IMG/VR virus record: IMGVR_UViG_3300011584_000017 | Location: 1 to 35,849 of that record | Length of the DNA stretch: 35,849 bases | From: a virus | Lineage: Duplodnaviria; Heunggongvirae; Uroviricota; Caudoviricetes | Direction: 5' to 3' (one strand) | Translations under genes and position numbers: made by a program | The notes under the pieces: model-generated | The model's input: the letters and a program-made list of their open reading frames with translations, nothing else | Databases searched by the model: none | Told to the model about the DNA's origin: nothing | Shown: positions 1-35,849 of the stretch, piece after piece | Layout of the letters: each line of letters begins with the position of its first letter | Numbering within the stretch: position 1 is the first letter of the stretch

Positions 1-483
1 ATGACGAAGAAAAAAGCACATAAACCTGGTTCAGCGACCATCGCGCTTAACAAGCGCGCCCGTCACGAATACTTTATCGAAGAAGAGTTCGAAGCGGGAC
101 TTGCCCTGCAAGGCTGGGAAGTTAAATCCCTGCGCGCAGGAAAAGCCAATATCAGCGACAGCTACGTCCTTCTGCGTGACGGAGAGGCATTTCTGTTTGG
201 CGCTAACATCACGCCAATGGCCGTGGCCTCCACGCATGTGGTGTGCGACCCTACCCGTACCCGCAAGTTACTTCTCAACCAGCGCGAACTGGACTCATTG
301 TACGGTCGCGTCAATCGAGAAGGCTATACCGTAGTGGCGCTCTCCCTGTACTGGAAAAATGCCTGGTGCAAAGTGAAAATCGGCGTCGCCAAAGGTAAGA
401 AACAGCACGATAAACGTTCAGATATCAAAGAGCGCGAATGGCAGGTAGATAAAGCGCGTATCATGAAAAACGCCCACCGTTAA
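1..483 (+). CDS. smpB: SsrA-binding protein SmpB
   Basis: 160-aa ORF; sequence recognised from memory as enterobacterial SmpB; immediately upstream of the tmRNA gene, the conserved smpB-ssrA arrangement. Confidence 0.96.
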
Positions 484-697
484 ACCTGCACTCCAATTAT
501 TGACCAGTTCCTCACCGCGCCTCCCTCTCCGGCGGCGCGAATGAACATCTTATTGGCTATCACATCCGACACAAATGTTGCCATCCCATTGCTTAATCGA
601 ATAAAAATCAGGCTACATGGGTGCTAAATCTTTAACGATAACGCCATTGAGGCTGGTCATGGCGCTCATAAATCTGGTATACTTACCTTTACACATT

Positions 698-1060
698 GGG
701 GCTGATTCTGGATTCGACGGGATTTGCGAAACCCAAGGTGCATGCCGAGGGGCGGTTGGCCTCGTAAAAAGCCGCAAAAAATAGTCGCAAACGACGAAAA
801 CTACGCTTTAGCAGCTTAATAACCTGCTTAGAGCCCTCTCTCCCTAGCCTCCGCTCTTAGGACGGGGATCAAGAGAGGTCAAACCCAAAAGAGATCGCGT
901 GGAAGCCCTGCCTGGGGTTGAAGCGTTAAAACTTAATCAGGCTAGTTTGTTAGTGGCGTGTCCGTCCGCAGCTGGCAAGCGAATGTAAAGACTGACTAAG
1001 CATGTAGTACCGAGGATGTAGGAATTTCGGACGCGGGTTCAACTCCCGCCAGCTCCACCA
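698..1060 (+). ncRNA. ssrA: tmRNA (transfer-messenger RNA, SsrA)
   Basis: Starts GGGGCTGATTCTGGATTCGACGG (tRNA-like 5' end) and ends ...GGTTCAACTCCCGCCAGCTCCACCA; internal tag reading frame at 787-819 encodes ANDENYALAA followed by TAA; about 363 nt. Confidence 0.96.
787..819 (+). other. tmRNA mRNA-like domain: proteolysis tag reading frame (ANDENYALAA-stop)
   Basis: GCA AAC GAC GAA AAC TAC GCT TTA GCA GCT TAA read directly inside the tmRNA. Confidence 0.9.
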
Positions 1061-8959: not shown

Positions 8960-9526
8960 TCAGGGGGATTCATTGATCTTATTTGCCGGAAATTTTCTAT
9001 AAATGGTAGAAACGCCTACATCAAAAATCAGTGCAATACGCTGTATTGATTCTCCGGCCTCGAGTAAACGCCCAATCTGTGCCCACTGTTCGGTGGTCAA
9101 CTTAGGACGGCGTCCACCTACTCTGCCTTTGGCACGAGCTGCAGCCAGCCCTGCCCTGGTACGTTCAACTATCAGTTCGCGTTCCATTTCAGCCAGGGCA
9201 CCCATGACATGAAAAAAGAAACGGCCCATTGGGGTACTGGTATCAATACTGTCAGTCAGGCTTCTGAAATTCACACCACGCTGGCGCAACTCTTCTATCA
9301 GCGTAACAAGATGCCGCATACTGCGCCCCAACCTGTCCAGCTTCCAGACAACCAGCGTGTCTCCTGCCGATAGTGTCCTGAGTAGTTTTTTCAGCCCCGG
9401 TCTGTCGGACTTAGTGCCACTGATTTTGTCCTCAAAAATCCGCTCACATCCCGCGCAGTTCAGTGCATTACGTTGCAAATCGGTGTTCTGGTCATTTGTT
9501 GACACGCGTACATAGCCAATAAGCAT
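8960..9526 (-). CDS. Site-specific DNA invertase, serine recombinase (Gin/Pin/Cin/Hin family)
   Basis: MLIGYVRVSTNDQNTDLQRNAL...VVWKLDRLGRSM...FFFHVMGALAEMERELI...: near-identical in pattern to Mu Gin; the ORF track start at 9532 adds MI before the likely Gin-like start. Confidence 0.92.
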   Translation of the reverse strand: MLIGYVRVSTNDQNTDLQRNALNCAGCERIFEDKISGTKSDRPGLKKLLRTLSAGDTLVVWKLDRLGRSMRHLVTLIEELRQRGVNFRSLTDSIDTSTPMGRFFFHVMGALAEMERELIVERTRAGLAAARAKGRVGGRRPKLTTEQWAQIGRLLEAGESIQRIALIFDVGVSTIYRKFPANKINESP

Positions 9527-9532
9527 GATCAT

Positions 9533-9608
9533 CCCCCTGAATAAAAACCGGAGATGATGCCAGTTAGCTGTTACCTCTGCATTTTCTTAAACGTTGGTTT
9601 GGGAGAAG
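9533..9608. repeat. Left inverted repeat of the invertible segment (contains the 15-bp core ttggtttgggagaag)
   Basis: Perfect 76-bp reverse-complement match to 11490-11565. Confidence 0.85.
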
Positions 9609-10093
9609 GCTCTGCATTACCTGTTGGTGTCCCTGTTCCGTGGCCTTCAGCCACTCCGCCAACAGGCTGGCTGAAATGCAATGGTGCAGCTTTTTCTGCT
9701 GAAGAATACCCGGAACTGGCAAAAGTTTACCCGACAAATAAATTGCCTGATTTACGTGGTGAGTTTATTCGTGGCTGGGATGACGGGCGGGGGATTGATA
9801 CAGGTCGCTCTATTTTAAGTATTCAGGGATATGCAACGGAGGATCATGCTCATGGATTACCGTCAAGATCCACGATTGTGACTGATGCAACTATTAATTT
9901 CTATTTTGATGAAAGCTGGGTAAATAGTGGCACTGACATTATCAAAAGAGGAAACACAAACGATGCTGGATTACCAGCACCGGATTATGGAACCTTTAAA
10001 ACATATAAACAATCAGTGGCTGGTTTAGGTGCCGCAGCCTCAGAAACGCGTCCGCGTAATATTGCATTTAACTATATCGTGAGGGCAGCCTGA
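9554..10093 (+). CDS. Alternative (silent in this orientation) tail-fibre C-terminal variable segment Sv'
   Basis: ORF shares GLGEGSALPVGVPVPWPSA with the end of the H constant region, then diverges; tail-fibre-like C-terminus; lacks the H constant part in this orientation. Confidence 0.7.
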   Translation: MMPVSCYLCIFLNVGLGEGSALPVGVPVPWPSATPPTGWLKCNGAAFSAEEYPELAKVYPTNKLPDLRGEFIRGWDDGRGIDTGRSILSIQGYATEDHAHGLPSRSTIVTDATINFYFDESWVNSGTDIIKRGNTNDAGLPAPDYGTFKTYKQSVAGLGAAASETRPRNIAFNYIVRAA

Positions 10094-10695
10094 TGCATAA
10101 AGCAATATTAAATAGTGAGCTCATTGCAACAAAGGCAGGGGATGTTACCGTTTATAACTATGATGGTGAAACACGGGAATATATTTCCACTTCAAATGAA
10201 TATCTTGCCGTTGGTGTCGGCATTCCGGCATGTTCCTGTTTAGATGCCCCTGGCACACATAAGGCTGGTTATGCAATCTGCCGTTCTGCAGATTTTAACT
10301 CATGGGAATATGTGCCAGACCATCGCGGTGAAACGGTCTATAGCACCGAAACAGGAGAATCAAAAGAAATCACCGCTCCGGGTGATTACCCTGAAAATAC
10401 AACCACTATCGCCCCATTAACGCCATATGATAAATGGGATGGTGAGAAATGGGTGACGGATACCGAGGCACAGCATAGCGCCGCAGTAGATGCAGCAGAA
10501 GCACAGCGCCAGTCGCTGATTGATACTGCAATGGCTTCCATCAGTCTGATTCAACTGAAATTGCAGGCCGGACGTAAACTGACGCAGGCAGAAACAACCC
10601 GGCTTAACGCTGTGCTGGATTACATTGACGCGGTGACGGCAACAGATACCAGCACCGCGCCGGATGTCATCTGGCCTGAACTGCCGGAGGCGTAG
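10093..10695 (+). CDS. Tail fibre assembly protein (U'-like, partner of Sv')
   Basis: 200-aa ORF with the typical Tfa C-terminus (...LDYIDAVTATDTSTAPDVIWPELPEA). Confidence 0.8.
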   Translation: MHKAILNSELIATKAGDVTVYNYDGETREYISTSNEYLAVGVGIPACSCLDAPGTHKAGYAICRSADFNSWEYVPDHRGETVYSTETGESKEITAPGDYPENTTTIAPLTPYDKWDGEKWVTDTEAQHSAAVDAAEAQRQSLIDTAMASISLIQLKLQAGRKLTQAETTRLNAVLDYIDAVTATDTSTAPDVIWPELPEA

Positions 10696-21125: not shown

Positions 21126-22892
21126 ATGAACACCACACTGACACCCGCAGATCTCGATCCCCGTCGGCAGGCCATGCTGCTGTACTTTCAGGGATACCGC
21201 GTAGCCCGCATTGCTGAAATGCTGGGCGAGAAAGTTGCAACCGTTCACAGCTGGAAAAAACGCGACAAGTGGGGTGACTATGGGCCGCTGGATCAGATGC
21301 AGCTCACCACCGCCGCACGCTACTGCCAGCTCATTATGAAGGAGCACAAAGAAGGGAAAGATTTCAAAGAGATTGACCTGCTGGCGCGCCAGTCGGAGCG
21401 CCACGCGCGGATCGGCAAGTTTAACAATGGCGGCAACGAAGCCGACTTAAACCCTAACGTCGCCAACCGCAACAAAGGCCCGCGTCGTCAGCCGGAAAAG
21501 AACGTTTTCACCGATGAACAGATTGAGAAGCTGGAAGAAATCTTCCATTCCTCCATGTTCAACTACCAGCGCCACTGGTGGGAAGCCGGAAAAACCAACC
21601 GCATCCGCAACCTGCTAAAGTCACGCCAGATCGGCGCGACCTTCTATTTTGCCCGTGAAGCCCTGATTGACGCCCTGCTTACCGGACGTAACCAGATTTT
21701 CCTTTCTGCCAGTAAGGCACAGGCTCACGTCTTTAAGCAGTACATCATCGATTTTGCCAAAGAAGTCGAGGTGGAGCTGAAAGGTGATCCGATGGTGCTT
21801 CCTAACGGGGCCACGCTTTACTTCCTCGGCACCAATGCCCGCACTGCCCAGAGTTACCACGGCAACCTGTATCTGGATGAATATTTCTGGATCCCGAAAT
21901 TCCAGGAGCTGCGCAAAGTGGCTTCCGGTATGGCTATTCACAAAAAATGGCGACAAACCTATTTTTCCACGCCATCCAGCCTGACCCACAGTGCTTATCC
22001 GTTCTGGTCCGGTGCGCTGTTCAACCGTGGGCGCAACAAAGCCGACAAGGTGGACATCGACCTGTCCCATAACAATCTGGCCCCCGGCCTGCTGTGCGCA
22101 GACGGGCAATACCGCCAGATAGTCACCGTGGAAGATGCGGTGCACGGCGGCTGTAACCTGTTCGACCTCGACCAGTTGCGCATGGAGTACAGCCCGGACG
22201 AATACCAGAACCTGCTGATGTGTGAGTTCGTGGACGATCTCGCGTCCGTGTTCCCGCTCAGCGAGCTGCAGGCGTGCATGGTGGACAGCTGGGAAGTCTG
22301 GACCGACTTCCATGCACTGGCGCTGCGCCCGTTTGGCTGGCGCGAAGTATGGATTGGTTATGACCCGGCAAAAGGTACGCAGAACGGCGACAGCGCCGGA
22401 TGCGTGGTGGTGGCACCGCCAGCCGTACCGGGCGGCAAGTTCCGCATTCTTGAACGTCACCAGTGGCGCGGGATGGACTTCCGCGCCCAGGCTGATGCCA
22501 TCAAAAAACTGACCGAACAGTACAACGTGACGTACATCGGTATTGACTCGACCGGCGTCGGTCACGGGGTTTACGAGAACGTGAAAGCGTTCTTTCCAGC
22601 CGTCCGGGAGTTTGTCTATAACCCCAATGTTAAAAACGCCCTGGTACTCAAGGCCTACGACATTATCAGCCACCGCCGTCTGGAGTTTGACGCCGGGCAC
22701 ACCGACATTGCGCAGTCATTCATGGCAATCCGTCGCGCAACCACCGCCAGTGGCAACCGCCCAACCTATGAAGCCAGCCGCAGCGAAGAAGCCAGCCACG
22801 CCGATCTGGCCTGGGCAACAATGCACGCACTGTTTAACGAACCACTGCAGGGCGAGTCCGCCAATACCAGTAATATTGTGGAGATTTTTTGA
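21126..22892 (+). CDS. P: Terminase ATPase (large) subunit P
   Basis: 588-aa ORF, size and position of P2 gpP, divergent from the O operon. Confidence 0.93.
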   Translation: MNTTLTPADLDPRRQAMLLYFQGYRVARIAEMLGEKVATVHSWKKRDKWGDYGPLDQMQLTTAARYCQLIMKEHKEGKDFKEIDLLARQSERHARIGKFNNGGNEADLNPNVANRNKGPRRQPEKNVFTDEQIEKLEEIFHSSMFNYQRHWWEAGKTNRIRNLLKSRQIGATFYFAREALIDALLTGRNQIFLSASKAQAHVFKQYIIDFAKEVEVELKGDPMVLPNGATLYFLGTNARTAQSYHGNLYLDEYFWIPKFQELRKVASGMAIHKKWRQTYFSTPSSLTHSAYPFWSGALFNRGRNKADKVDIDLSHNNLAPGLLCADGQYRQIVTVEDAVHGGCNLFDLDQLRMEYSPDEYQNLLMCEFVDDLASVFPLSELQACMVDSWEVWTDFHALALRPFGWREVWIGYDPAKGTQNGDSAGCVVVAPPAVPGGKFRILERHQWRGMDFRAQADAIKKLTEQYNVTYIGIDSTGVGHGVYENVKAFFPAVREFVYNPNVKNALVLKAYDIISHRRLEFDAGHTDIAQSFMAIRRATTASGNRPTYEASRSEEASHADLAWATMHALFNEPLQGESANTSNIVEIF

Positions 22893-23917
22893 TGGGAAAG
22901 AGTAAGAAGAACCGCGCTGCGTCGACGAACCAGATCCAGCATAAAAGTCAAACTACAGCCGAAGCATTCAGCTTCGGTGATCCCGTTCCTGTTCTGGACC
23001 GCCGCGAACTACTGGACTATGTGGAATGCGTACAGACAGATCGCTGGTATGACCCGCCAGTGAGTTTTGACGGACTGGCGCGTACCTTTCGCGCCGCCGT
23101 GCACCACAGCTCACCGATTGCAGTGAAATGCAACATTCTGACCAGCACCTACATCCCTCACCCGCTGCTCAGCCAGCAGGCTTTTTCACGTTTTGTGCAG
23201 GACTATCTGGTTTTTGGTAACGCCTACCTGGAGAAACGCACGAACCGGTTCGGTGAAGTTATCGCCCTTGAGCCTGCTCTGGCAAAATACACCCGACGCG
23301 GATTAGACCTGGATACCTACTGGTTTGTGCAATACGGCATGACTACGCAGCCGTATCAGTTCACAAAAGGCAGCATTTTTCATCTGATGGAACCGGACAT
23401 CAACCAGGAGATCTACGGCCTGCCCGGTTATCTTTCTGCCATTCCGTCAGCCCTGCTCAACGAGTCCGCCACGCTGTTCCGCCGTAAGTATTACATTAAC
23501 GGCAGCCATGCAGGCTTCATCATGTACATGACCGATGCCGCGCAGAACCAGGAGGACGTGAACAACCTCCGCAATGCGATGAAAAGCGCCAAAGGTCCTG
23601 GCAACTTCCGCAACCTGTTTATGTACTCGCCTAACGGCAAAAAGGACGGGCTTCAGATTATCCCGTTGTCAGAGGTCGCAGCGAAGGATGAGTTTTTGAA
23701 TATCAAGAACGTGAGCCGGGATGACATGATGGCGGCGCATCGTGTGCCGCCGCAAATGATGGGGATTATGCCTAATAATGTTGGGGGGTTTGGGGATGTA
23801 GAGAAAGCCAGTTGCGTTTTTGTTCGTAACGAATTGATGCCGCTACAGAAACGGCTACAGGAACTAAATAGATGGTTGAAAGATGAAATTATCCGTTTTG
23901 CGACATACTCATTATGA
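22889..23917 (+). CDS. Q: Portal protein Q
   Basis: 342-aa ORF, size and position of P2 gpQ; followed by a terminator hairpin and the cos-proximal region. Confidence 0.9.
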   Translation: MMGKSKKNRAASTNQIQHKSQTTAEAFSFGDPVPVLDRRELLDYVECVQTDRWYDPPVSFDGLARTFRAAVHHSSPIAVKCNILTSTYIPHPLLSQQAFSRFVQDYLVFGNAYLEKRTNRFGEVIALEPALAKYTRRGLDLDTYWFVQYGMTTQPYQFTKGSIFHLMEPDINQEIYGLPGYLSAIPSALLNESATLFRRKYYINGSHAGFIMYMTDAAQNQEDVNNLRNAMKSAKGPGNFRNLFMYSPNGKKDGLQIIPLSEVAAKDEFLNIKNVSRDDMMAAHRVPPQMMGIMPNNVGGFGDVEKASCVFVRNELMPLQKRLQELNRWLKDEIIRFATYSL

Positions 23918-23950
23918 CGACAATATGTTCGCTGAACAGTAAAATATCAA

Positions 23951-23976
23951 GAAGGCCTCTTACAAGGCCTTCTTTT
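23951..23976. terminator. Bidirectional hairpin terminator between the convergent Q and AIPR-like genes
   Basis: gaaggcct-cttaca-aggccttc followed by TTTT on the plus strand; it lies 2 nt before the stop of the minus-strand gene. Confidence 0.6.
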
Positions 23977-23978
23977 AG

Positions 23979-25721
23979 TTAGAATGCGGATTTGATTTTT
24001 TTCTCAAATGCCTCATATACAGGCTGGTTCATTTGGGCCGTTGCAGTAATAAGCTGTGAAAAATTTGATATACAATCTTTAACTTTTGTAGGACTTTTCA
24101 ACCCTCCTTCAACCAGTGCAGGCAGCAACTGATTACTTAAAGCCAGACACACATCTACAATTGGCTCCCAAATACTTTCAGCCTGAGAAGGAGAGACCGC
24201 ACTTCCAAACGAAACTCTAAATAAATTAGGAACGGGACGGCCCAAAAAGTTTTCCAAACATTCGGCAATAGCCGAGCACAATAAAGGTATTGAACCACGA
24301 TGCCTGAGATATCCCAATTGAGCGCCATCATTTTTTGAAAGAGTATCTTTCTTTGCCAAAGCTATTTTCTTGTTCTCAATACACCGCATGAGAGAATACG
24401 CACAAACAATATGTGAAGCTTTTGTACTGTCATTAAAAATCTTAGAATAATGAGAGTCATTAGTCCAAATTGCAGATCGCTGATTATAAGCTACCGTCGG
24501 CTCTCCATGGAAACTCATCAAAGCTTGACCAACAGTATAAGAAGGCAGTAGATTAGTTTTTCGACGAATGACACTTTCAGCACCTCCTCGTCTTCCTCCA
24601 TCATATTCAGCATCAGGAATAGAAGCAAATTCATTTTTAAGTCGTTTTTGAATTTTGTCTGTGCTTCTGAAATCAGATGCTTCAACTTTATTCTGACTGT
24701 TATTATACTGAATTATATTCTGAATTAGATCAGCATCCGCATCTTTGACTTTTATAAATCTAGCTTGGACTTTAACTGATTCTGGAGGTAATCGTGGCAG
24801 CGTTCCTAAAGCACCTGTTGTCTGTGCTCCATTAACTATTGACATCCCTCTGATTTTAAGATTCTTTGATGCTTCATTGAATTTATATTCATGAACCAAA
24901 ACAGTTACGCCATTATTGTATGCCCAAAATTCTGATGCTGAATTTTCCGCACTGTTACGGATACCATTATTGATATTTGAATCAGATGACCTTGATCCAA
25001 GGTAGTCTCTAACATTTGCTGAAAATATTTTTAATTTATGCTTTTTGTACGCTCTAGCTAAATCTCTTCCCTGAATGGTAGTACAGAATGCATTCCAATT
25101 ATCTCCTTTTATTTCGTAGCCACCATCACTGACTTTAATATTAAAAATATCATCAACCAGTATTGGTGATAGTGATTCACTATACCATTCCGTCAACTTT
25201 TCAGTGCCTACTTCCATTGCATGCACTTGTATTTTAGCATCTTCAAAATCATGTTTTAAAATAGTTGTTGCTGTCTGCTGAACCGTAATTAGCTCTTGAG
25301 CCACATTTGTTGAAGATGGTAAGTTATGAACATACCAAACGTACAGAGTTTTAATTTTCCCTTGTTTGATTGATGTCCGTATCTGTTGAGCAGAAGATTT
25401 TATTCTATCGGGTACATCATGCAAATCTCTTTGCAGAAGCCATGCTAAAGCAATATTAAGATCACTCGCTTTATTTGCTGGAGCTTCCTGTCTATCTTTG
25501 CTTGAGAAATAGCATTGAGCAAGTACAGCAAATTCTTCTTCTTCATTAATATACACAAGGTCACATTTCTTATCGTTATGTCCATCGGTAATGGACTCTG
25601 CTGCGACACTATCAATGTCATCAATTCTAAAATGTAATGCTAACGCAAACAAAGCCAGTCCATTATCACCATACGATTTCAAATCTTCTCTTGCAGAATA
25701 GGCTTGGTTCCAGGTACTCAT
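23979..25721 (-). CDS. AIPR-like protein (candidate abortive-infection / anti-phage defence protein); prophage cargo
   Basis: 580 aa from ATG 25721, which has a strong RBS (AAGGAG 5 nt upstream); visibly AT-rich relative to the phage core; no Walker A; motifs TDGHNDKKCDLVYIN and IVNGAQTTG that I associate from memory with the AIPR family; sits between Q and cos. Confidence 0.6.
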   Translation of the reverse strand: MSTWNQAYSAREDLKSYGDNGLALFALALHFRIDDIDSVAAESITDGHNDKKCDLVYINEEEEFAVLAQCYFSSKDRQEAPANKASDLNIALAWLLQRDLHDVPDRIKSSAQQIRTSIKQGKIKTLYVWYVHNLPSSTNVAQELITVQQTATTILKHDFEDAKIQVHAMEVGTEKLTEWYSESLSPILVDDIFNIKVSDGGYEIKGDNWNAFCTTIQGRDLARAYKKHKLKIFSANVRDYLGSRSSDSNINNGIRNSAENSASEFWAYNNGVTVLVHEYKFNEASKNLKIRGMSIVNGAQTTGALGTLPRLPPESVKVQARFIKVKDADADLIQNIIQYNNSQNKVEASDFRSTDKIQKRLKNEFASIPDAEYDGGRRGGAESVIRRKTNLLPSYTVGQALMSFHGEPTVAYNQRSAIWTNDSHYSKIFNDSTKASHIVCAYSLMRCIENKKIALAKKDTLSKNDGAQLGYLRHRGSIPLLCSAIAECLENFLGRPVPNLFRVSFGSAVSPSQAESIWEPIVDVCLALSNQLLPALVEGGLKSPTKVKDCISNFSQLITATAQMNQPVYEAFEKKIKSAF

Positions 25722-25804
25722 TATCACTCCTTAGTAATAAAGTTTTAGCGAAGGTTATCTCTAAGAAGGTACATTTTCAATTCCATTTATCCCTCCAGCG
25801 CGCG

Positions 25805-25823
25805 CTCGTATCCCCGCCACGCC
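25805..25823 (-). other. Putative cos site (cohesive-end sequence)
   Basis: Minus strand reads GGCGTGGCGGGGATACGAG followed by CGCGCGCTGGAGGG, closely resembling the remembered P2/186 cohesive ends (GGCG[A/T]GGCGGGGAAAGCA...). Confidence 0.45.
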
Positions 25824-25867
25824 TGCCCGCTTTATGTAGTGGTTTTCATGCACCTGCATGATCTACG

Positions 25868-25892
25868 CAAAAGCCCGCCAGAACTGGCGGGC
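25868..25892 (-). terminator. Rho-independent terminator downstream of the lipoprotein gene
   Basis: gcccgccag-aa-ctggcgggc hairpin followed by UUUU on the minus strand. Confidence 0.5.
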
Positions 25893-25996
25893 CTTAACAC
25901 AAAAGATCCTCAAACGATCATGCGATCTCATGCAGCATAGACATGCGCGCTTATGCAGAATGTGCAAAATCGTAACATACTCAGTAAGCGTGAAAC

Positions 25997-26674
25997 CTAG
26001 AACGTGACAGCCTTGTCAAAGCCAGAAATAATTGTATAAGAAATAGACGAGTTATCAGCCTTGTTCACTTTGAACTTGGCACCTTTGTAAGCGATAACGT
26101 CACTTCCCTTAGAATCTACAGAAAAATCTGTTGTAAATGCTGCACGAGCCATATCGTTTGCAAATTCACGATAGGTGAACTTCATTACACCGCCTGCATT
26201 TCCATTGTATTCGATAGTCTTAACCAATGAGTTACTAACTCGACACAGCCCATCAGGAACACGTTTGATAGAAATTTCTGATGCAGTATAAGAAGTACCA
26301 TTTGGCGGTGATATCTCATTTTTTGCAGCATCGTAACTAACATAATCAACATAGTTACCGATTTGCCCATAGAGATTTTTTAACGCAACAGCTTGAGGGT
26401 TATGATAATTGCGGTAAATTCCATTCCCCTCACTGCAATATGTACCAGCAGCGATAGAAGACAATGCACCATTAGCCGCACCAAGTTCTAGTACGTCCGT
26501 TTTAAATCCAGTAGCAGATGTGATAATGGGATCGCCCATGTAGGCGGTAGCACTTTGCCCAATAGCAGGCTTCACCACTTCAATAGCAGTGATATTTCGG
26601 TTAGAAGCATGTGGCACGCAACCAGTTAGGATTACAGCAAGAGATATTGGTAACGCTACATTATTAATTTTCAT
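25997..26674 (-). CDS. Putative lipoprotein (candidate superinfection-exclusion / surface protein); prophage cargo
   Basis: 225 aa from ATG 26674; signal peptide with lipobox MKINNVALPISLAVILTGC; Gly/Ser/Thr/Tyr/Asn-rich mature part ending in a C-terminal Phe; AT-rich; flanked by its own terminators. Confidence 0.7.
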   Translation of the reverse strand: MKINNVALPISLAVILTGCVPHASNRNITAIEVVKPAIGQSATAYMGDPIITSATGFKTDVLELGAANGALSSIAAGTYCSEGNGIYRNYHNPQAVALKNLYGQIGNYVDYVSYDAAKNEISPPNGTSYTASEISIKRVPDGLCRVSNSLVKTIEYNGNAGGVMKFTYREFANDMARAAFTTDFSVDSKGSDVIAYKGAKFKVNKADNSSISYTIISGFDKAVTF

Positions 26675-26695
26675 TTTTAGCCTATTATTCTTTTC

Positions 26696-26733
26696 TTGAC
26701 AAAAAACAAGGCGATATCTGATTGACATCGCCT
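26696..26733 (-). terminator. Terminator of the SOS-regulated tum/DinI-like operon
   Basis: Hairpin aggcgat...atcgcct followed by a U-run (UGUUUUUUG) on the minus strand. Confidence 0.45.
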
Positions 26734-26787: not shown

Positions 26788-27021
26788 TCAATGCAGCCAG
26801 CTGTCGTCTTCCCACACCTTCTGCATAATTTTCATCACTTGTTTTCTTTCTTCGTCCAGTTGCAGTCCGGTCAGTTCCACACCGTTAGAGCTACCTTTAC
26901 GGATACGGATTACCGTTTTGGGATACAGGGGGCGCAGATTGCGGTAAAGCTCGGATTCAAGGGCGTCCAGGGTAGACTGGCTAATCTTCTGCTCTTTATC
27001 GATCATTATTTCAATGCGCAT
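26788..27021 (-). CDS. DinI-family protein (Tum C-terminal-domain-like, SOS-induced)
   Basis: 77 aa from ATG 27021 (MRIEIMIDKEQKISQSTLDALESELYRNL...VWEDDSWLH), clear DinI-like sequence; RBS GAGGTG 6 nt upstream; the longer track ORF from 27093 is an artefactual extension. Confidence 0.8.
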   Translation of the reverse strand: MRIEIMIDKEQKISQSTLDALESELYRNLRPLYPKTVIRIRKGSSNGVELTGLQLDEERKQVMKIMQKVWEDDSWLH

Positions 27022-27031
27022 AAAAGTCACC

Positions 27032-27220
27032 TCAGCTGATGACATCCATTGAGCGGTTGTATTCGTGGCTTCTGATTTTTGCCATGAGTTCATCAGTCAA
27101 TTCAGAAACCCACTGCAGAGCCAGCTCCTTCTCTTCATCACTACACTCACTAGCCGCTACAAGCTTAAGAAAAAAATCAATGCGCTGGAGCTTCAAAGAC
27201 TCCAAAAAATAGTCCTGCAT
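27032..27220 (-). CDS. Small acidic protein, first gene of the LexA-controlled operon (candidate antirepressor/Tum N-terminal-like)
   Basis: 62-aa ORF with RBS GGAGG; its stop TGA lies inside the RBS of the DinI-like gene (translational coupling). Confidence 0.55.
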   Translation of the reverse strand: MQDYFLESLKLQRIDFFLKLVAASECSDEEKELALQWVSELTDELMAKIRSHEYNRSMDVIS

Positions 27221-27374: not shown

Positions 27375-29789
27375 TTAATACAGGTTCCGCCACTTATCAT
27401 CTTCCTGCAAACGCTGGTTCCGATAGAAGATACGCAGGCCTGCTCCTGACGGAATACTGCCGCCGCGAAGGAGTAAATCGACCTCTTTCTCGCTGCCATC
27501 AAATCCTCTGGATTTCAGTTCATAGACGAGCTGCTGTCGTTGATGGTCTGTAATTCGCTGTTTGTAGTCTCTACGCCGTTTCGGTTTCACCAGACGTAAC
27601 CTTGCAGCCAGTTCCCGGCGCCCCTTTTTGTTCATACTGTGCAGGTAATCGTGCAACTCCTTGTCATCCATGCGGGTAAAGTCCGTTCTGGGGCCCCCAT
27701 CAGCTGATTTATCTTTCTCCTGTTGGTTCAAATTTTCAGCAAGGGGACAGTTATTGCCACGAGTCCAAGGGGCGCAAGCGCCCTGGTCGGCTGCCGCCTC
27801 CTGAACGTCAACGGCCTTACGAACCATTTTCCACTTCACTGCATGAGTGCAGATCTTGCCCTCTGCAATGGGTGACCAGATGCCATAAATACGAATACCG
27901 TGATCGCCATAGGCGGTCGGCTCTTCGTTGATTTCATAAGCGGTTCTGATGAGGTGATATTTACGGGGAACCAGTACGCCGCCCTGCTTCATGATGTAGG
28001 TGGCATAGCAACCAGCATCAGCTGCAGCCAGAATGGCATCAAGGCGCGGGTTATCCAGTACCGGCGCACCTGCTTTTTTGTCACCCTGTTGCCTTGCCGC
28101 CTGACCAGCCAGCAATCGCAGTTCACGATAAGCCTGACGCCCCGGAATGCCAAAGAAGCGGAATTGCTGAACACGATGCAGAGACGCCCAGGCATTAACG
28201 TATTCAGCGTTATCACGCAGGGATTTACCCGTTTCCTTGCTGATCTCGCCAGCCAGACCACGCCCGTCAATGTTCTTACTGATGTATTTCGCGATGTAGC
28301 TTGTCGGCGTTCCTTTGCGCGGGTTTATCAGCTCAGATTTAAAGCGTGGACCAGTGTTATTACCCAGTTCCTCGCGGTCTTCACGGATGGCAAATTTACG
28401 CAACAATGCAGTAATGGCGCGGCGGTCTTTTTTGCGCATGAAACACAACAGGTGCCAGTGAACTGTACCGTCATGATGCGGCTCAGCCACCCGCACGCCA
28501 TACCAGCGCAACCCGGCTTTGTGCATCGCCTTACGAAATGCAGCAAACATGCCGACCAGATAATCGCTGCTTTGTCTTACCGTCGCATTTGTCCAGGTTG
28601 GGTTTGGTCTGCCGTTATTGAGCGTGGAATGGAAACGTGACGGACAGGTAATGGTGTAGAAAACGGCGCAGTCACCGCGCATTTCCGCGATAAGCTCCAG
28701 ACCTTTAACACAGGCCATCATCTCATTGCGGCGGTGCGCCGGGTTGCTGCTGCTGGCGTTTACCACGTCTTCCATATCCAGCGTGTCGCCCTCTTCGTTC
28801 ACCAGTTCATGAGAACGGAAAAACTCCAGTGACTTGCGGCGCTGCTCACGTTTATGCATCACGGCTTCATAGCTGACATAGGGAGATGCTTTTTTGCTGA
28901 CCAGGCAGACAGCACGCAACTGCTCTTCCCGCCATTCGCAACGCATTTTCCATAATTTCCGGTACCACCAGTCGGCGCACAACATACGCGCCAGCGAACC
29001 CGGAATGAGTTCATAGGGCACGGGTTTACGGCGGTTTCTTTTCCGACGGAGTTGCTCAAACGCAGGCGGGATGACATCCAGACGCAGGGTTTCCGCTGCC
29101 ACCTTTTCCCATGTCTTGCGGATTTCTTCTGGCTTAACGTCATCGGTGGCATACAAATCACCACAAGCTGCATCAAGGCACATGCTCATATGCGCAGCGA
29201 CAAGGGTAGACAGGCGTTTCACCTGATCCTGACTCATTTCAGGCAGGATCAGCAGGCCGTCCAGCCCTACATGGCTTGCCATAAAACGAAAAGATGCAGA
29301 TAGCTGGCTGTCGCGTACATGCTCCAGTCGTTCCAGACATGGCTTAATCGTCTCACGTAAATAGCGGGAATAAGCCTTTGGCCTGCCCAGGCTGCTGAAG
29401 TATTCAATACGTTGCATCAGCGGCTTGCTGATATGAGAAGGCTGGGCGTTGACGTCCGCCAGAATGACCATATCCGGATTAAAACGCTGCTGCTCATGCG
29501 CCAGCTTTGCCCGGCTAATGAGCTTATCCTGCTCCATTTCGTGCTGGACAGGATCACGTGATTCATTAAAAAAATAACGCTCCCAGACCTGATCACTCAG
29601 TGCCTCGCGGCGCAACTGTTCCTGCTCGTTATCGGCAGCGTACAGAGTGATCAGGTTTGAAAGCGCAGAAACCGGCGCAACTTCCGCCGGGTCCAGATAA
29701 GGGTTAATGGCCTTTTTCGGGCTGTTCCATGAGAACGCTGCGGCAACCTCGTTAAAGCCGTAGCAGTTGTTCATATCGGCATGGCTCAT
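27375..29789 (-). CDS. A: Replication initiation protein A (rolling-circle initiator)
   Basis: 804-aa ORF in the gpA position at the end of the early operon; ATGA overlap with the upstream methylase gene. Confidence 0.88.
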
Positions 29790-30643
29790 GCACGTACTCC
29801 GTACACGGCAGAACTATCCACGCCACGCGAATAATCAAATCCCACCCAGCAGCGCGGCCCGGAAACAGCAATGATTTCTGTTGCTGATTTACCCTCGCCA
29901 GCTGCCACACCGATGCTGCGTTTTACCTTGATATAGTGGTGAGTAAAATTGCGATACAGCGAACGGATCAGGGATGTGTCACTGTTAGAAACAATGACCG
30001 GATGTCCTTCTGATGACCGATGTTCAAGAACGGATGCCAGGTGATACTGGTCATCTTCAGTGAAACCATCAGTGTGATAGCCGGAAAACGTACCGTCATA
30101 CGGCGGATCGCAATACACCACATCCCCCGCCTTCAACATCGCCAGCGTTTCATCAAAGCTGGCGCAGATAAACGTTGCTCGCTGGGCTTTTTCTGCAAAT
30201 GCGCGAATTTCTTTTTCAGGGAAATACGGATTTTTATAATTACCGTAGGGAATGTTGAAATGCCCGCTCTTGTTATAGCGACATAAACCACGGTAACCGT
30301 GACGATTGAGATACAGAAAATATACCGCTTTCATGAAATCAGTAATTTCAGTGGAGTAATTAAACTCCTGCCTTATGTTGTAATAAGCCACCTCTCTGTT
30401 TGCTTCCTCAAATAAAGCTCTGGCACGAGATATAAACGCCTCACAATCAGCAGCAACCTTTTTATAGAGGTTGATTAAATCAGGATTAATATCCGCAACA
30501 AGATAGCTGGGGTAATCCGTCTCCATCATCACTGCACAGGAACCCGCGAAAGGTTCAACCAGTCGCGGACCAGCAGGAAGATGTTTTTTCAGTTCGAACA
30601 TAATGGCGGTTTTATTTCCCGCCCATTTCAGGATGGTGCTCAT
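29786..30643 (-). CDS. dam: DNA adenine methyltransferase (Dam family, orphan)
   Basis: 285 aa from ATG 30643 ([12 protein letters not shown]...FAGSCAV...DPPY): SAM-binding and DPPY catalytic motifs of N6-adenine MTases; no adjacent restriction endonuclease gene. Confidence 0.88.
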
Positions 30644-30867
30644 ACAGTACCTCCGTTGTAATGTTTGCCTTTCAGCTCTGCGATTTCCTGACAGGTAATG
30701 CAAAGTTGCACACCCGGAATGGCACGGCGGCGTGCTGGCGGAATTGGCGCTTCACACTCAACGCAAAGCACGCGGGACACGCCCGGCGTTTTGGCACGGG
30801 CAGCACGGATGTGGCGCTGGCGTTCTTCTTCAACGCGCTGCTGTACGAGATCCATTGCATCAGCCAT
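30640..30867 (-). CDS. TraR/DksA-family C4 zinc-finger protein (P2 Orf82-like)
   Basis: 75 aa with CVEC...CITC zinc-finger; ATGA overlap with dam. Confidence 0.7.
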   Translation of the reverse strand: MADAMDLVQQRVEEERQRHIRAARAKTPGVSRVLCVECEAPIPPARRRAIPGVQLCITCQEIAELKGKHYNGGTV

Positions 30868-34790: not shown

Positions 34791-35849
34791 ATGAAAATTA
34801 AACTAACATCAATCATTGCCTATACCATTATATCTATTATTATTGCACTAGGTTTAGTGTATACCAATAGACCAAGAATCTTTGTTTTATTTAGCATATT
34901 TCATATCCTTGGTGTGGTTGTTATATTCTATTATTTCAACTGGTTAAAACTTAATGAGAAAAACCTATTAAAGCAGCCATTATTTATAGCTTCAATTATC
35001 ATACCGTTAGAAATGTTTATTTTGTATGGCCTTTGGGCATGGAAAGGTCACAGTTTAGATTTTACGTCAGAAGGCTTTAATCAATTCTTAGATATCTCTA
35101 AATTACCATTGTTAATTTTAGCTTCTTCTGTTCCTCTTGCATCAATAGTAAATAATATACACAGAACAACTCAGACAGAGAATCAGATTGAAAAAACACA
35201 AAAACAAATCAATCTTGTAATTGAAAAGAATAAAACTGATTCTTATTACTCACATCTAAAAAGTTACGCGGATATTTTTAAAACACTACCGGCTTTTAAA
35301 ATATCAAGATTAAACAAAAATGATGGAAGCACGGAATACATTGAATTATCTGTCGTTCATCCTTACACTCTCTACAAAAATATATTCAAATCATCTTCAA
35401 TCGATAATGGATATAGCACCACGGTCGAAGATGGCTTCATAAAAAAAACAAAACACCTTTATAACAAAATAAACAAAAGCCTTACATCAAAAAATACTAC
35501 TCATGATATCCAATTATCTAATCTGCAACTAATAGAATCACACATAATTGAACTATGCCGATTACTTGGGATTGACTATAAATACCAAGAACATCTATTT
35601 CTAATAATTTTTGAGAATCCCAAACATAATATAGAATCAATAACTATCTCATATAGTGATGAAAAACAACTTAAGCAAATGCTTTGGGGGCTAAGAAACA
35701 TTCTCATTGAACTATATATTTTAATTGACGAAGACCCCAATATTTTTCTAGCAAGCAAAAATACTGGTAACGTCATCCCTGATTATGCCCTATATTTTGA
35801 AAATCTGTTTACACACATTCTCCCTATCTCAAATAAAATGCGTATGTGA
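34791..35849 (+). CDS. Hypothetical membrane protein (about 4 N-terminal TM helices plus Lys/Asn/Ile-rich soluble domain); candidate prophage-expressed exclusion/defence factor
   Basis: 352-aa ORF starting 4 nt after the int stop, ending with TGA at the last window base; extremely AT-rich compared with the phage core; weak RBS. Confidence 0.6.
   Translation: MKIKLTSIIAYTIISIIIALGLVYTNRPRIFVLFSIFHILGVVVIFYYFNWLKLNEKNLLKQPLFIASIIIPLEMFILYGLWAWKGHSLDFTSEGFNQFLDISKLPLLILASSVPLASIVNNIHRTTQTENQIEKTQKQINLVIEKNKTDSYYSHLKSYADIFKTLPAFKISRLNKNDGSTEYIELSVVHPYTLYKNIFKSSSIDNGYSTTVEDGFIKKTKHLYNKINKSLTSKNTTHDIQLSNLQLIESHIIELCRLLGIDYKYQEHLFLIIFENPKHNIESITISYSDEKQLKQMLWGLRNILIELYILIDEDPNIFLASKNTGNVIPDYALYFENLFTHILPISNKMRM

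What the first reader, a model, noticed from the sequence alone, without database searches (positions are those of the whole stretch)
23979..25721. 580-aa AIPR-like gene between the portal gene and cos, the strongest candidate for an uncharacterised single-gene anti-phage system
In P2 the portal gene lies almost directly at cos, and the cos-flanking A-to-Q interval is where P2 carries its exclusion genes old and tin. Here the interval holds an AT-rich 580-aa ORF with a strong RBS, convergent with Q and sharing its terminator hairpin. It has no Walker A or other NTPase motif, so it is not an Old homologue despite the similar length. It has the motifs TDGHNDKKCDLVYIN and IVNGAQTTG, which I recall as hallmarks of the poorly characterised AIPR abortive-infection family. 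Its mechanism and activity would be new information.
Basis: partly seen in the sequence, partly recalled or inferred. Interest (0 to 1): 0.7.

Follow-up and report, generated by a model that had tools for sequence, protein, structure and literature searches.

The report
AIPR/AbiU-type defence gene beside cos
The gene is real and is a catalogued AIPR/AbiU-family candidate anti-phage nuclease carried as cargo next to the packaging site of a P2-like prophage, a known defence hotspot, so it is an ordinary member of a known kind whose mechanism is still untested.

Summary
There is an intact 580-aa ORF at 23979-25721 (-) with 37% GC against about 55% for the phage backbone. It has an AAGGAG RBS, is convergent with portal gene Q, and shares a bidirectional hairpin with it. 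It lies between Q and the cos 19-mer at 25805-25823.

It matches Pfam AIPR (E=1.7e-34), PADLOC AbiU (1.8e-34) and PHROG 1841 over its full length (6e-243). RefSeq already names it "AIPR family protein". Near-identical copies sit at the same site in Klebsiella P2-like phages. A distant AIPR (25% identity) occupies the same site in Salmonella phage RE-2010.

The gpA-gpQ cos hotspot, and AIPR/AbiU genes within it, are published (Rousset 2022; Moura de Sousa 2026).

dN/dS is 0.03 and no partner gene is conserved.

The most likely function is a single-protein, nuclease-based anti-phage system. No defence phenotype exists for this subfamily, and a distant P4 AIPR was not among the validated systems in an eight-phage screen. 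Interest is low to moderate.

The parts
23979..25721 (-). AIPR-family gene, 580 aa plus stop (RefSeq WP_001748167.1-like)
   Evidence: ORF list. Pfam AIPR 120 bits. PADLOC AbiU 118 bits. PHROG 1841 E=6e-243 over the full length. RefSeq annotation. dN/dS 0.032.
25122..25610 (-). N-terminal PD-(D/E)xK-like (FokI/Mrr/MspJI-like) nuclease domain, about residues 38-200. Conserved residues are D50, D54, Q69-x-Y71, K84, H132 and N133.
24546..25076 (-). AIPR core, residues 216-392, with a ParB/Srx-like fold. Motifs: FSANVRDYLG, FWxYNNG, SIVNGAQTTG, NNSQNK..DFRSTD, GGRRG.
23982..24545 (-). C-terminal all-helical domain, residues 393-580, with no recognisable family
   Evidence: The AF2 model is helical here with pLDDT 85-97. 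No Pfam hit even at E<=10.
25727..25732 (-). Shine-Dalgarno AAGGAG, 5 nt before the ATG
   Evidence: Sequence.
25752..25780 (-). Possible weak promoter: TTGAAA, 17-nt spacer, TAACCT, lying between cos and the gene
   Evidence: Read by eye. It falls below the threshold of the promoter scan. This is inference only.
25805..25823 (-). cos cohesive-end 19-mer GGCGTGGCGGGGATACGAG
   Evidence: Alignment with P2 cosL 1-19 and the RE-2010 cos region. The same motif is upstream of the AIPR gene in L001, L011 and L012.
25797..25946 (.). Conserved cos block shared with about 1280 E. coli P2-like prophages. The cargo junction is about 9 nt past the 19-mer.
   Evidence: Most E. coli hits cover only query positions 1998-2147, which is window 25797-25946. 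The window and RE-2010 are identical through CGCGCGCTG and then diverge.
23949..23974 (.). Bidirectional terminator hairpin between the Q stop (23917) and the AIPR stop (23979)
   Evidence: Terminator scan, sequence. P2 has tQ in the equivalent place.
22889..23917 (+). Portal gene Q (context, convergent neighbour)
   Evidence: ORF list. RefSeq 'phage portal protein'.

Best explanation
**What it is.** The gene is a lysogenic-conversion (moron) gene of a P2-like prophage. It was inserted about 9 nt past the cos cohesive end on the portal side, inside the known gpA-gpQ defence hotspot. It encodes a stand-alone AIPR/AbiU-superfamily protein.

**Proposed mechanism.** It would act as a single-polypeptide nuclease defence.
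- The central ParB/Srx-like AIPR core is the sensing or regulatory module. It would bind nucleic acid or a nucleotide, by analogy with the DUF262 domains of GmrSD, BrxU and SspE.
- The N-terminal Mrr/FokI-like PD-(D/E)xK domain is the effector that cuts nucleic acid early in infection by a competing phage. This would match the delayed phage transcription reported for Lactococcus AbiU1.
- In this subfamily the catalytic Lys of the Q-x-K motif is replaced by Tyr. A conserved Lys (K84) on the following helix probably takes over its role.

**Shown versus inferred.** Shown here: family membership, domain folds (predicted), residue conservation, purifying selection, single-gene organisation, hotspot location. 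Inferred: anti-phage activity, nuclease activity, the role of the ParB-like core, and the target.
For: **Family membership**
- Pfam AIPR, PADLOC AbiU and MzaE, PHROG 1841 'Abi alpha-like'.
- hhalign to the RE-2010 AIPR gives probability 99.8 from residue 38 to 458. That protein matches PADLOC AbiU over nearly its full length.
- hhalign to a bona fide AbiU1-type Lactococcus protein gives probability 99.0 over residues 124-435.

**Folds**
- ParB/Srx proteins dominate the hits of the core domain.
- Both agree with the literature: AbiUi resembles FokI (PMC13064643), and AbiU1/AIPR/COG1479 is a ParB-superfamily nuclease domain (PMC3632139).

**Conservation**
- D50, D54, Q69, Y71, K84, H132 and N133 are kept in 39-43 of 44 homologues down to 28% identity.
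- dN/dS is 0.032.

**Single gene**
- Homologues have different neighbours in E. coli, Pseudomonas and cyanobacteria.
- An allele occurs without the adjacent 243-aa ORF.

**Hotspot**
- Three P2-like lineages carry an AIPR gene right after cos.
- Only 17 of 5426 E. coli genomes carry this cargo at the site, although 1277 carry the cos block.
- The hotspot is published.
Against: - No phenotype exists for this subfamily.
- The only enterobacterial AIPR known to have been tested is the P4-hotspot pFR77 gene, which shares 30% identity over the core only. It is listed among 'additional tested systems', not validated ones, in an eight-phage screen.
- Lactococcus AbiU1 gives only a 10- to 100-fold drop in efficiency of plaquing (EOP).
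- The canonical catalytic Lys is missing (Y71), so the nuclease domain could be inactive.
- The ParB-like core lacks the GxxR/DGQ(Q/H)R arginine (it reads NGAQT), so NTP binding is not assured.
- No convincing promoter was found.
Confidence: 0.6

Rival explanations
1. It works as a Type IV-like restriction enzyme rather than by abortive infection. The protein would directly recognise and cut invading DNA that carries a modification or a structural feature, as MspJI, AspBHI, Mrr and GmrSD do, and the cell would survive.
For: - ParB/Srx plus nuclease is the architecture of GmrSD, BrxU and SspE.
- AIPR genes are often linked to R-M loci (PMC2292703 and PMC3506569).
Against: - The founding member was described as abortive infection with delayed transcription.
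- No DNA-modification reader domain (SRA or similar) was detected.
- The prophage carries its own Dam-like methylase, which would have to be tolerated.
Confidence: 0.2
2. It does not defend against other phages. It would be a selfish or phage-serving nuclease: an addiction or stabilisation module, an anti-satellite (anti-P4) factor, or a nuclease that promotes exchange of the cos-adjacent cargo.
For: - The cargo junction lies only about 9 nt from the cos cleavage site, and different AIPR genes occupy exactly this junction.
- Homologues elsewhere sit next to serine recombinases or integrases on islands.
- The P4-borne AIPR showed no validated protection.
Against: - The family is spread across phyla in non-phage contexts, including a stable cyanobacterial chromosomal site.
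- No antitoxin-like partner is present.
- The hotspot is strongly enriched in proven defence systems.
Confidence: 0.1
3. The nuclease domain is catalytically dead because K became Y. The protein would be a DNA- or nucleotide-binding regulator, comparable to DndB, and not an effector.
For: - Loss of the canonical Lys.
- DndB has been placed in the same AbiU1/AIPR/COG1479 ParB-like group and acts as a regulator.
Against: - The other acidic and polar site residues, plus a new Lys84, are conserved in 42-43 of 44 sequences. That pattern points to a remodelled site rather than a decayed one.
- No dnd, R-M or other operon that it could regulate is adjacent.
Confidence: 0.08
4. It is a non-functional remnant, or an ORF present by chance in AT-rich DNA.
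For: None beyond the lack of a strong promoter match.
Against: - The frame is intact at full length.
- dN/dS is 0.032.
- 5494 cluster representatives are related, and the roughly 580-aa architecture is kept down to about 30% identity.
Confidence: 0.01

Closest known systems
AbiU1 (AbiUi) of Lactococcus lactis (Dai et al. 2001), represented here by the 589-aa AIPR protein of L. cremoris plasmid pC42
   Same: - Length is similar (589 against 580 aa).
- It has the AIPR core with N-V-R-D-Y, NNG-I-T, IVNG-x-QT and NN-Q motifs. hhalign probability is 99.0 over residues 124-435, with 26% identity over 232-431.
- It has an N-terminal FokI-like nuclease domain (for AbiUi, for the window protein).
- A single gene is sufficient in Lactococcus.
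   Different: - The N-terminal 120 residues are not alignable by sequence.
- AbiU1-type proteins have the canonical ...IIQSK... motif, whereas the window family has Q-C-Y plus K84.
- No AbiU2/HEPN-like gene lies downstream here.
- The PADLOC AbiU score is 118 bits against 590 bits.
- The host and mobile element differ.
AIPR protein of Salmonella phage RE-2010 (ADQ92389, annotated 'abortive infection protein, prevents superinfection')
   Same: - It occupies the same site: cos 19-mer, then the AIPR gene, convergent with the portal gene.
- The architecture is the same. hhalign probability is 99.8 over residues 38-458.
   Different: - Identity is only about 25%.
- It keeps Q-F-K where the window protein has Q-C-Y, and it has Glu where the window protein has K84.
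- It is closer to AbiU1 (PADLOC 228 bits, nearly full length).
P4-hotspot AIPR (plasmid pFR77, E. coli E1167; Rousset et al. 2022)
   Same: It is an AIPR single gene placed directly after the cos site of a P2/P4-type element, with 30% identity over the core residues 211-374.
   Different: - The N-terminal domain has the canonical D..QSK motif and is not alignable by BLASTP.
- It is carried by the satellite, not the helper phage.
- It was cloned and tested but is listed under 'additional tested systems', not among the validated ones.
GmrSD / BrxU / SspE (DUF262 ParB-like NTPase plus DUF1524 nuclease)
   Different: - There is no DUF262 or DUF1524 Pfam hit.
- The nuclease is PD-(D/E)xK-like and N-terminal, not His-Me and C-terminal.
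- The DGQQR arginine is replaced (NGAQT).
MzaE of the five-gene Mza system
   Same: It shares the AIPR core (PADLOC MzaE E=4e-16; NCBIfam MzaE 67.6 bits).
   Different: The score is far below the equivalog cutoff of 1050 bits, and no mzaA-D genes are nearby.
P2 Old and Tin
   Same: They are lysogenic-conversion exclusion genes in the same gpA-gpQ cos-flanking interval. Old is of similar length.
   Different: They are not homologous: the window protein has no Walker A, ATPase or TOPRIM signature. They lie on the A side of cos, whereas the AIPR gene is on the Q side.

Membership tests
AIPR (Pfam PF10592) | Match to the family HMM above the gathering threshold | tested here: met
   120.3 bits against a cutoff of 25, E=1.7e-34, residues 233-452.
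AIPR (Pfam PF10592) | Core motifs N-x-R-x-Y-x-G, NNG-(I/V)-T, IVNG-x-QT and NN-x-QN | tested here: met
   All are present and invariant or nearly so in 32 close and 44 distant homologues. They are shared with pFR77, RE-2010 and Lactococcus AbiU1-type proteins.
AbiU (PADLOC PDLC02357, founded on Lactococcus AbiU1) | Significant similarity to the AbiU model | tested here: met
   E=1.8e-34 and 118 bits, but only HMM positions 125-450 of 537 are covered. A true AbiU1-type protein scores 590 bits over positions 1-532.
AbiU (PADLOC PDLC02357, founded on Lactococcus AbiU1) | N-terminal nuclease-like domain with the canonical D...Q-x-K motif | tested here: not met
   A homologous domain is present (hhalign to RE-2010 from residue 38), but the motif is D54...Q69-C-Y71, with Tyr in 39 of 44 family members and Lys moved to position 84.
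AbiU (PADLOC PDLC02357, founded on Lactococcus AbiU1) | One gene confers phage resistance and delays phage transcription | not testable with these tools
   This needs plaque and infection assays. The phenotype is known only for Lactococcus.
ParB/Srx superfamily | ParB/Srx fold of the AIPR core | tested here: met
ParB/Srx superfamily | Phosphate-binding GxxR / DGQ(Q/H)R arginine | tested here: not met
   The motif is N297-G-A-Q-T301, and Thr is invariant in 44 sequences.
PD-(D/E)xK nucleases | Restriction-endonuclease-like fold | tested here: met
PD-(D/E)xK nucleases | Complete catalytic D...(D/E/Q)-x-K triad | tested here: inconclusive
   D54 and Q69 are conserved and Lys is replaced by Y71. 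A conserved K84 on the next helix may substitute. Activity is unknown.
OLD-family nucleases (P2 Old) | ABC-ATPase Walker A plus TOPRIM domain | tested here: not met
   No Walker A by regex. No ATPase or OLD hits in Pfam, PADLOC or NCBIfam.
Mza system (MzaE) | Equivalog-level match and neighbouring mzaA-D genes | tested here: not met
   67.6 bits against a cutoff of 1050. The neighbours are Q, cos and a lipoprotein-like ORF.
GmrSD/DUF262-DUF1524 | DUF262 and DUF1524 domains | tested here: not met
   No such Pfam hits, even at E<=10 on separate domains. There is only fold-level resemblance to BrxU.
P2-like cos-proximal (gpA-gpQ) defence hotspot cargo (Rousset 2022) | Variable, compositionally foreign gene between gpA and gpQ, next to cos | tested here: met
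   - GC is 37% against about 55%.
- The cargo is present in 17 E. coli genomes, whereas 1277 carry the cos block.
- Different AIPR genes occupy the same junction in RE-2010.
- Arrangements containing AIPR, including one with the window's neighbours WP_001154431 and WP_000700647, are listed in the paper's supplementary file 6.

The most novel reading that the evidence does not exclude
This roughly 580-aa AIPR subfamily is found from Enterobacteria to cyanobacteria and Bacteroidota. It may be a mechanistically distinct single-protein immune nuclease. In that reading, a ParB/Srx-like core that has lost the nucleotide-binding arginine senses a phage cue and gates a PD-(D/E)xK domain with a rebuilt active site (D50/D54, Q69, Y71 and K84 in place of D...Q-x-K). 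Its target range or trigger would differ from Lactococcus AbiU1.
Probability: 0.25. Interest if true: 0.6.

Novelty: new member of a known kind. Interest (0 to 1): 0.3.

Why it matters
AIPR/AbiU is one of the older named abortive-infection families. Annotation pipelines find it widely: 5494 clusters at 50% identity are related to this protein. Even so, the library searched here holds no biochemical mechanism or solved structure for it.

This copy is a compact, single-gene representative in a genetically tractable E. coli/Klebsiella P2-like prophage. It also has a clear set of candidate catalytic residues. Together these make it a convenient entry point for working out what AIPR proteins do.

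As a genome-scan finding it adds little. The gene, its family label and its hotspot are already in public annotation and in the literature.

Tried and rejected
- **Profile search of PDB sequences:** nothing below E=0.28, so no solved relative is detectable by sequence.
- **Pfam on the separated N- and C-terminal parts at E <= 10:** no hits.
- **First cos pattern (GGCGWGGCGGGGAWAGMRY):** it was too strict at its 3' end and found nothing. A shorter pattern and an alignment located cos.
- **Literature searches** for 'AIPR' as a whole word and for 'Mza/MzaE' returned almost only unrelated acronyms.
- **Dai et al. 2001 (PMC93294)** is not held, so AbiU1 properties are cited second-hand from the 2026 FEMS review.
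- **Old homology** was considered and rejected.
- **MzaE and DUF262 membership** were considered and rejected.
- **Linkage to the neighbouring 243-aa lipoprotein-like ORF** as a two-gene system was rejected, because an AIPR allele occurs without it.
Full report
**1. Observation**

The ORF exists as described. On the minus strand it runs from the ATG at 25721 to the stop at 23979-23981, giving 580 aa. The mechanical ORF list extends it to a GTG at 25727, but that GTG overlaps the Shine-Dalgarno sequence AAGGAG (25727-25732), which lies 5 nt before the ATG. RefSeq annotates the same 1743-nt CDS.

The gene is 37% GC. The window averages 51%, and the flanking terminase, portal and replication genes are 52-62% GC.

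The portal gene Q (22889-23917, +) and the ORF converge on a hairpin with an 11-bp stem at 23949-23974. The two quoted motifs start at residues 45 and 295, and there is no Walker A motif.

The P2-type cohesive-end sequence GGCGTGGCGGGGATACGAG lies at 25823-25805 on the minus strand, 84 nt upstream of the ATG. In P2 itself, cosL is at 1-19, the terminator tQ at 160-181 and Q at 187-1221. The exclusion genes tin and old sit at the other end of the genome, on the A side of cos. One refinement applies: this gene is a roughly 1.7-kb insertion on the Q side of cos, not in the tin/old position.

**2. What it is**

Family searches agree.
- Pfam AIPR (PF10592): 120 bits against a cutoff of 25, E=1.7e-34, residues 233-452.
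- PADLOC: AbiU E=1.8e-34 and MzaE E=4e-16.
- NCBIfam: only a sub-threshold MzaE match, 68 bits against 1050.
- PHROG 1841 ('Abi alpha-like abortive infection mechanism', moron category): matches over the full length, E=6e-243.

The gene is already in public annotation. PGAP names the 99.7%-identical E. coli copies 'AIPR family protein'. Copies that are 98.8% identical in Klebsiella P2-like phages (Peduoviridae, Kapieceevirus) carry AIPR or abortive-infection labels and sit in the same five-gene arrangement: 62-aa ORF, DinI, 225-aa ORF, AIPR, portal.

The family is large and well conserved.
- 2091 90%-identity clusters score E <= 1e-3 in the word-indexed search. The best 120 are 53-92% identical and 570-590 aa long, and they come from Proteobacteria, cyanobacteria and Bacteroidota.
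- The exhaustive search finds 5494 50%-identity clusters at E <= 1e-3. The roughly 580-aa architecture persists down to about 30% identity.
- dN/dS is 0.032 between the window gene and an 85%-identical allele at the same site in another E. coli prophage.

The gene stands alone.
- In E. coli and Pseudomonas islands, homologues have unrelated neighbours. An integrase and a serine recombinase are nearby.
- In cyanobacteria the gene lies between uvrA and a Uma2 gene.
- The diverged E. coli allele lacks the 243-aa ORF that flanks cos in the window.

**3. Hotspot context**

Only 17 of 5426 complete E. coli genomes carry this gene at this site. By contrast, 1277 genomes share the 150-bp cos block, window 25797-25946.

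Salmonella phage RE-2010 has a cos region identical to the window's up to CGCGCGCTG, 9 nt past the 19-mer. It then diverges into a different AIPR gene (25% identity), which is also convergent with its portal gene. That gene was annotated in 2010 as 'abortive infection protein, prevents superinfection'.

The published record covers this locus.
- Rousset et al. 2022 defined the gpA-gpQ cos-proximal interval of P2-like phages as a defence hotspot, with 1650 arrangements in 18,150 loci. Their table of loci lists AIPR-containing arrangements, including one with the window's neighbours WP_001154431 and WP_000700647.
- Moura de Sousa et al. 2026 report AbiU in both P2 and P4 elements.
- Rousset et al. 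also cloned an AIPR gene from the P4 hotspot (pFR77). It appears in Table S2B, 'additional tested systems'. It is not among the seven P4 systems that protected against their eight phages.
- That protein shares only 30% identity with the window protein, and only over the core. The negative result therefore transfers poorly.

**4. Anatomy and likely mechanism**

- ParB/Srx proteins: PadC 5.5, BrxU (DUF262) 5.4, Pnob8 ParB 5.0, sulfiredoxin 4.8.

Both assignments match earlier work. The 2026 lactococcal Abi review reports that an AlphaFold model of AbiUi resembles FokI. Makarova et al. 2013 placed AbiU1/AIPR/COG1479 in the ParB superfamily, often fused to other nucleases and linked to R-M systems.

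The architecture is therefore three parts:
- an N-terminal Mrr/FokI-like nuclease domain;
- a central ParB/Srx-like AIPR core;
- a helical C-terminal domain with no recognisable relatives.

In 44 homologues of 28-47% identity, the N-terminal domain keeps these residues:

| Residue | Kept in (of 44) |
|---|---|
| D50 | 43 |
| D54 | 42 |
| Q69 | 43 |
| Y71 | 39 (plus 2 Phe) |
| K84 | 42 |
| H132 | 43 |
| N133 | 42 |

D54-X14-Q69-x-Y71 has the spacing of the Mrr/MspJI D...Q-x-K motif, with Tyr in place of Lys. Profile alignment to the RE-2010 protein puts its I-F-Q-F-K opposite A-Q-C-Y. It also puts a Glu opposite K84. The Lactococcus AbiU1-type protein and pFR77 both have Q-S-K.

The simplest reading is that the catalytic lysine has moved to the next helix. 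This is inferred from the alignment only and was not checked in three dimensions.

In the core, G271, G292, G298, Q300, T301, N341 and Q343 are invariant. The arginine of the ParB GxxR or DUF262 DGQQR motif is absent, and the motif reads NGAQT. The three loops with the lowest confidence in the model (235-247, 343-351, 377-380) carry the most conserved motifs. That would fit a ligand-ordered pocket.

By analogy with GmrSD, BrxU and SspE, I propose that the AIPR core senses or binds nucleic acid or a nucleotide and controls the N-terminal nuclease. AbiU1 has been reported to delay phage transcription and to lower EOP 10- to 100-fold. Whether the outcome is abortive infection or direct restriction cannot be decided from sequence.

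**5. Comparison and membership**

- The protein is a member of Pfam AIPR.
- It matches the PADLOC AbiU model significantly but only partly: 118 bits over HMM positions 125-450 of 537. A true AbiU1-type protein scores 590 bits and RE-2010 scores 228 bits.
- It lacks the canonical Q-x-K motif.
- It has no AbiU2-like neighbour.
- It is not Old, not MzaE and not DUF262/GmrSD.

It is best filed as a distinct, uncharacterised subfamily of the AIPR/AbiU superfamily.

**6. Verdict**

It is not new, because the gene, its label and the hotspot are all on record.

What remains unknown is whether this subfamily protects against phages, and how. The variant active site is a modest new detail. I rate interest at 0.3.

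Noticed in passing
window 25997-26728 (-); the RefSeq start is equivalent to 26674: An AT-rich 225/243-aa ORF lies on the A side of cos. It has a lipoprotein-type signal peptide (…LAVILTGC). It matches PHROG 1353 (unknown function, E=4e-105) and has no Pfam or PADLOC hit. It is absent from the prophage that carries the diverged AIPR allele (L016). It could be a lysogenic-conversion or surface-exclusion gene.
   Followed up: partly
window about 25796/25797; L012 about 3753: The cargo junction lies only about 9 nt beyond the cos 19-mer. The window and Salmonella phage RE-2010 are identical through ...GATACGAGCGCGCGCTG and then carry unrelated AIPR genes. The P4 hotspot sequences in Rousset's Table S2 also become variable a few nt after the 19-mer.
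   Followed up: partly
L002-L007 (E. coli and Pseudomonas islands): 55-59%-identical homologues of the AIPR gene sit next to a serine recombinase (Pfam Resolvase) gene, close to an integrase, in two unrelated hosts. This hints at a small mobile cassette.
   Followed up: no
window 23979-25721, residues 235-247, 343-351 and 377-380: The three segments with pLDDT below 50 in an otherwise confident model are the most conserved sequence motifs: ANVRDYLGSRSSD, QNKVEASDF and RRGG.
   Followed up: no
window 29786-30703 (-): A Dam-like orphan DNA adenine methyltransferase lies just upstream of the replication gene A (PADLOC oMTase, E=2e-111). The same gene is present in the other AIPR-carrying prophages (L001, L016).
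   Followed up: no
window 1-1060 and 1184-2136: The host genes smpB (1-483) and tmRNA (698-1060) flank the prophage. Two low-GC ORFs follow, at 1184-1666 and 1705-2136. The first has a weak PADLOC hit to the candidate PDC-S48 (E=2e-7) and to the C-terminus of SspE (E=0.002). This may be small att-proximal cargo.
   Followed up: partly
window 34791-35849 (+): An ORF of at least 352 aa starts 5 nt after the integrase gene and runs off the end of the window. Its GC content is 30-37%, and it has no Pfam or PADLOC hit. It may be cargo of the int-att hotspot mentioned in PMC13586616, or a neighbouring island.
   Followed up: no
window 8960-10695: A Hin/Gin-type invertase (8960-9532, -) lies next to oppositely oriented tail-collar and tail-fibre-assembly ORFs (9554-10695, +), in a low-GC stretch. 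This suggests an invertible tail-fibre host-range switch.
   Followed up: no
window 26788-27220 (-): A DinI-like gene (Pfam E=1e-22) and a 62-aa ORF (PHROG 698) lie between gene A and the lipoprotein-like ORF. This pair recurs in many hotspot arrangements listed by Rousset et al.
   Followed up: no
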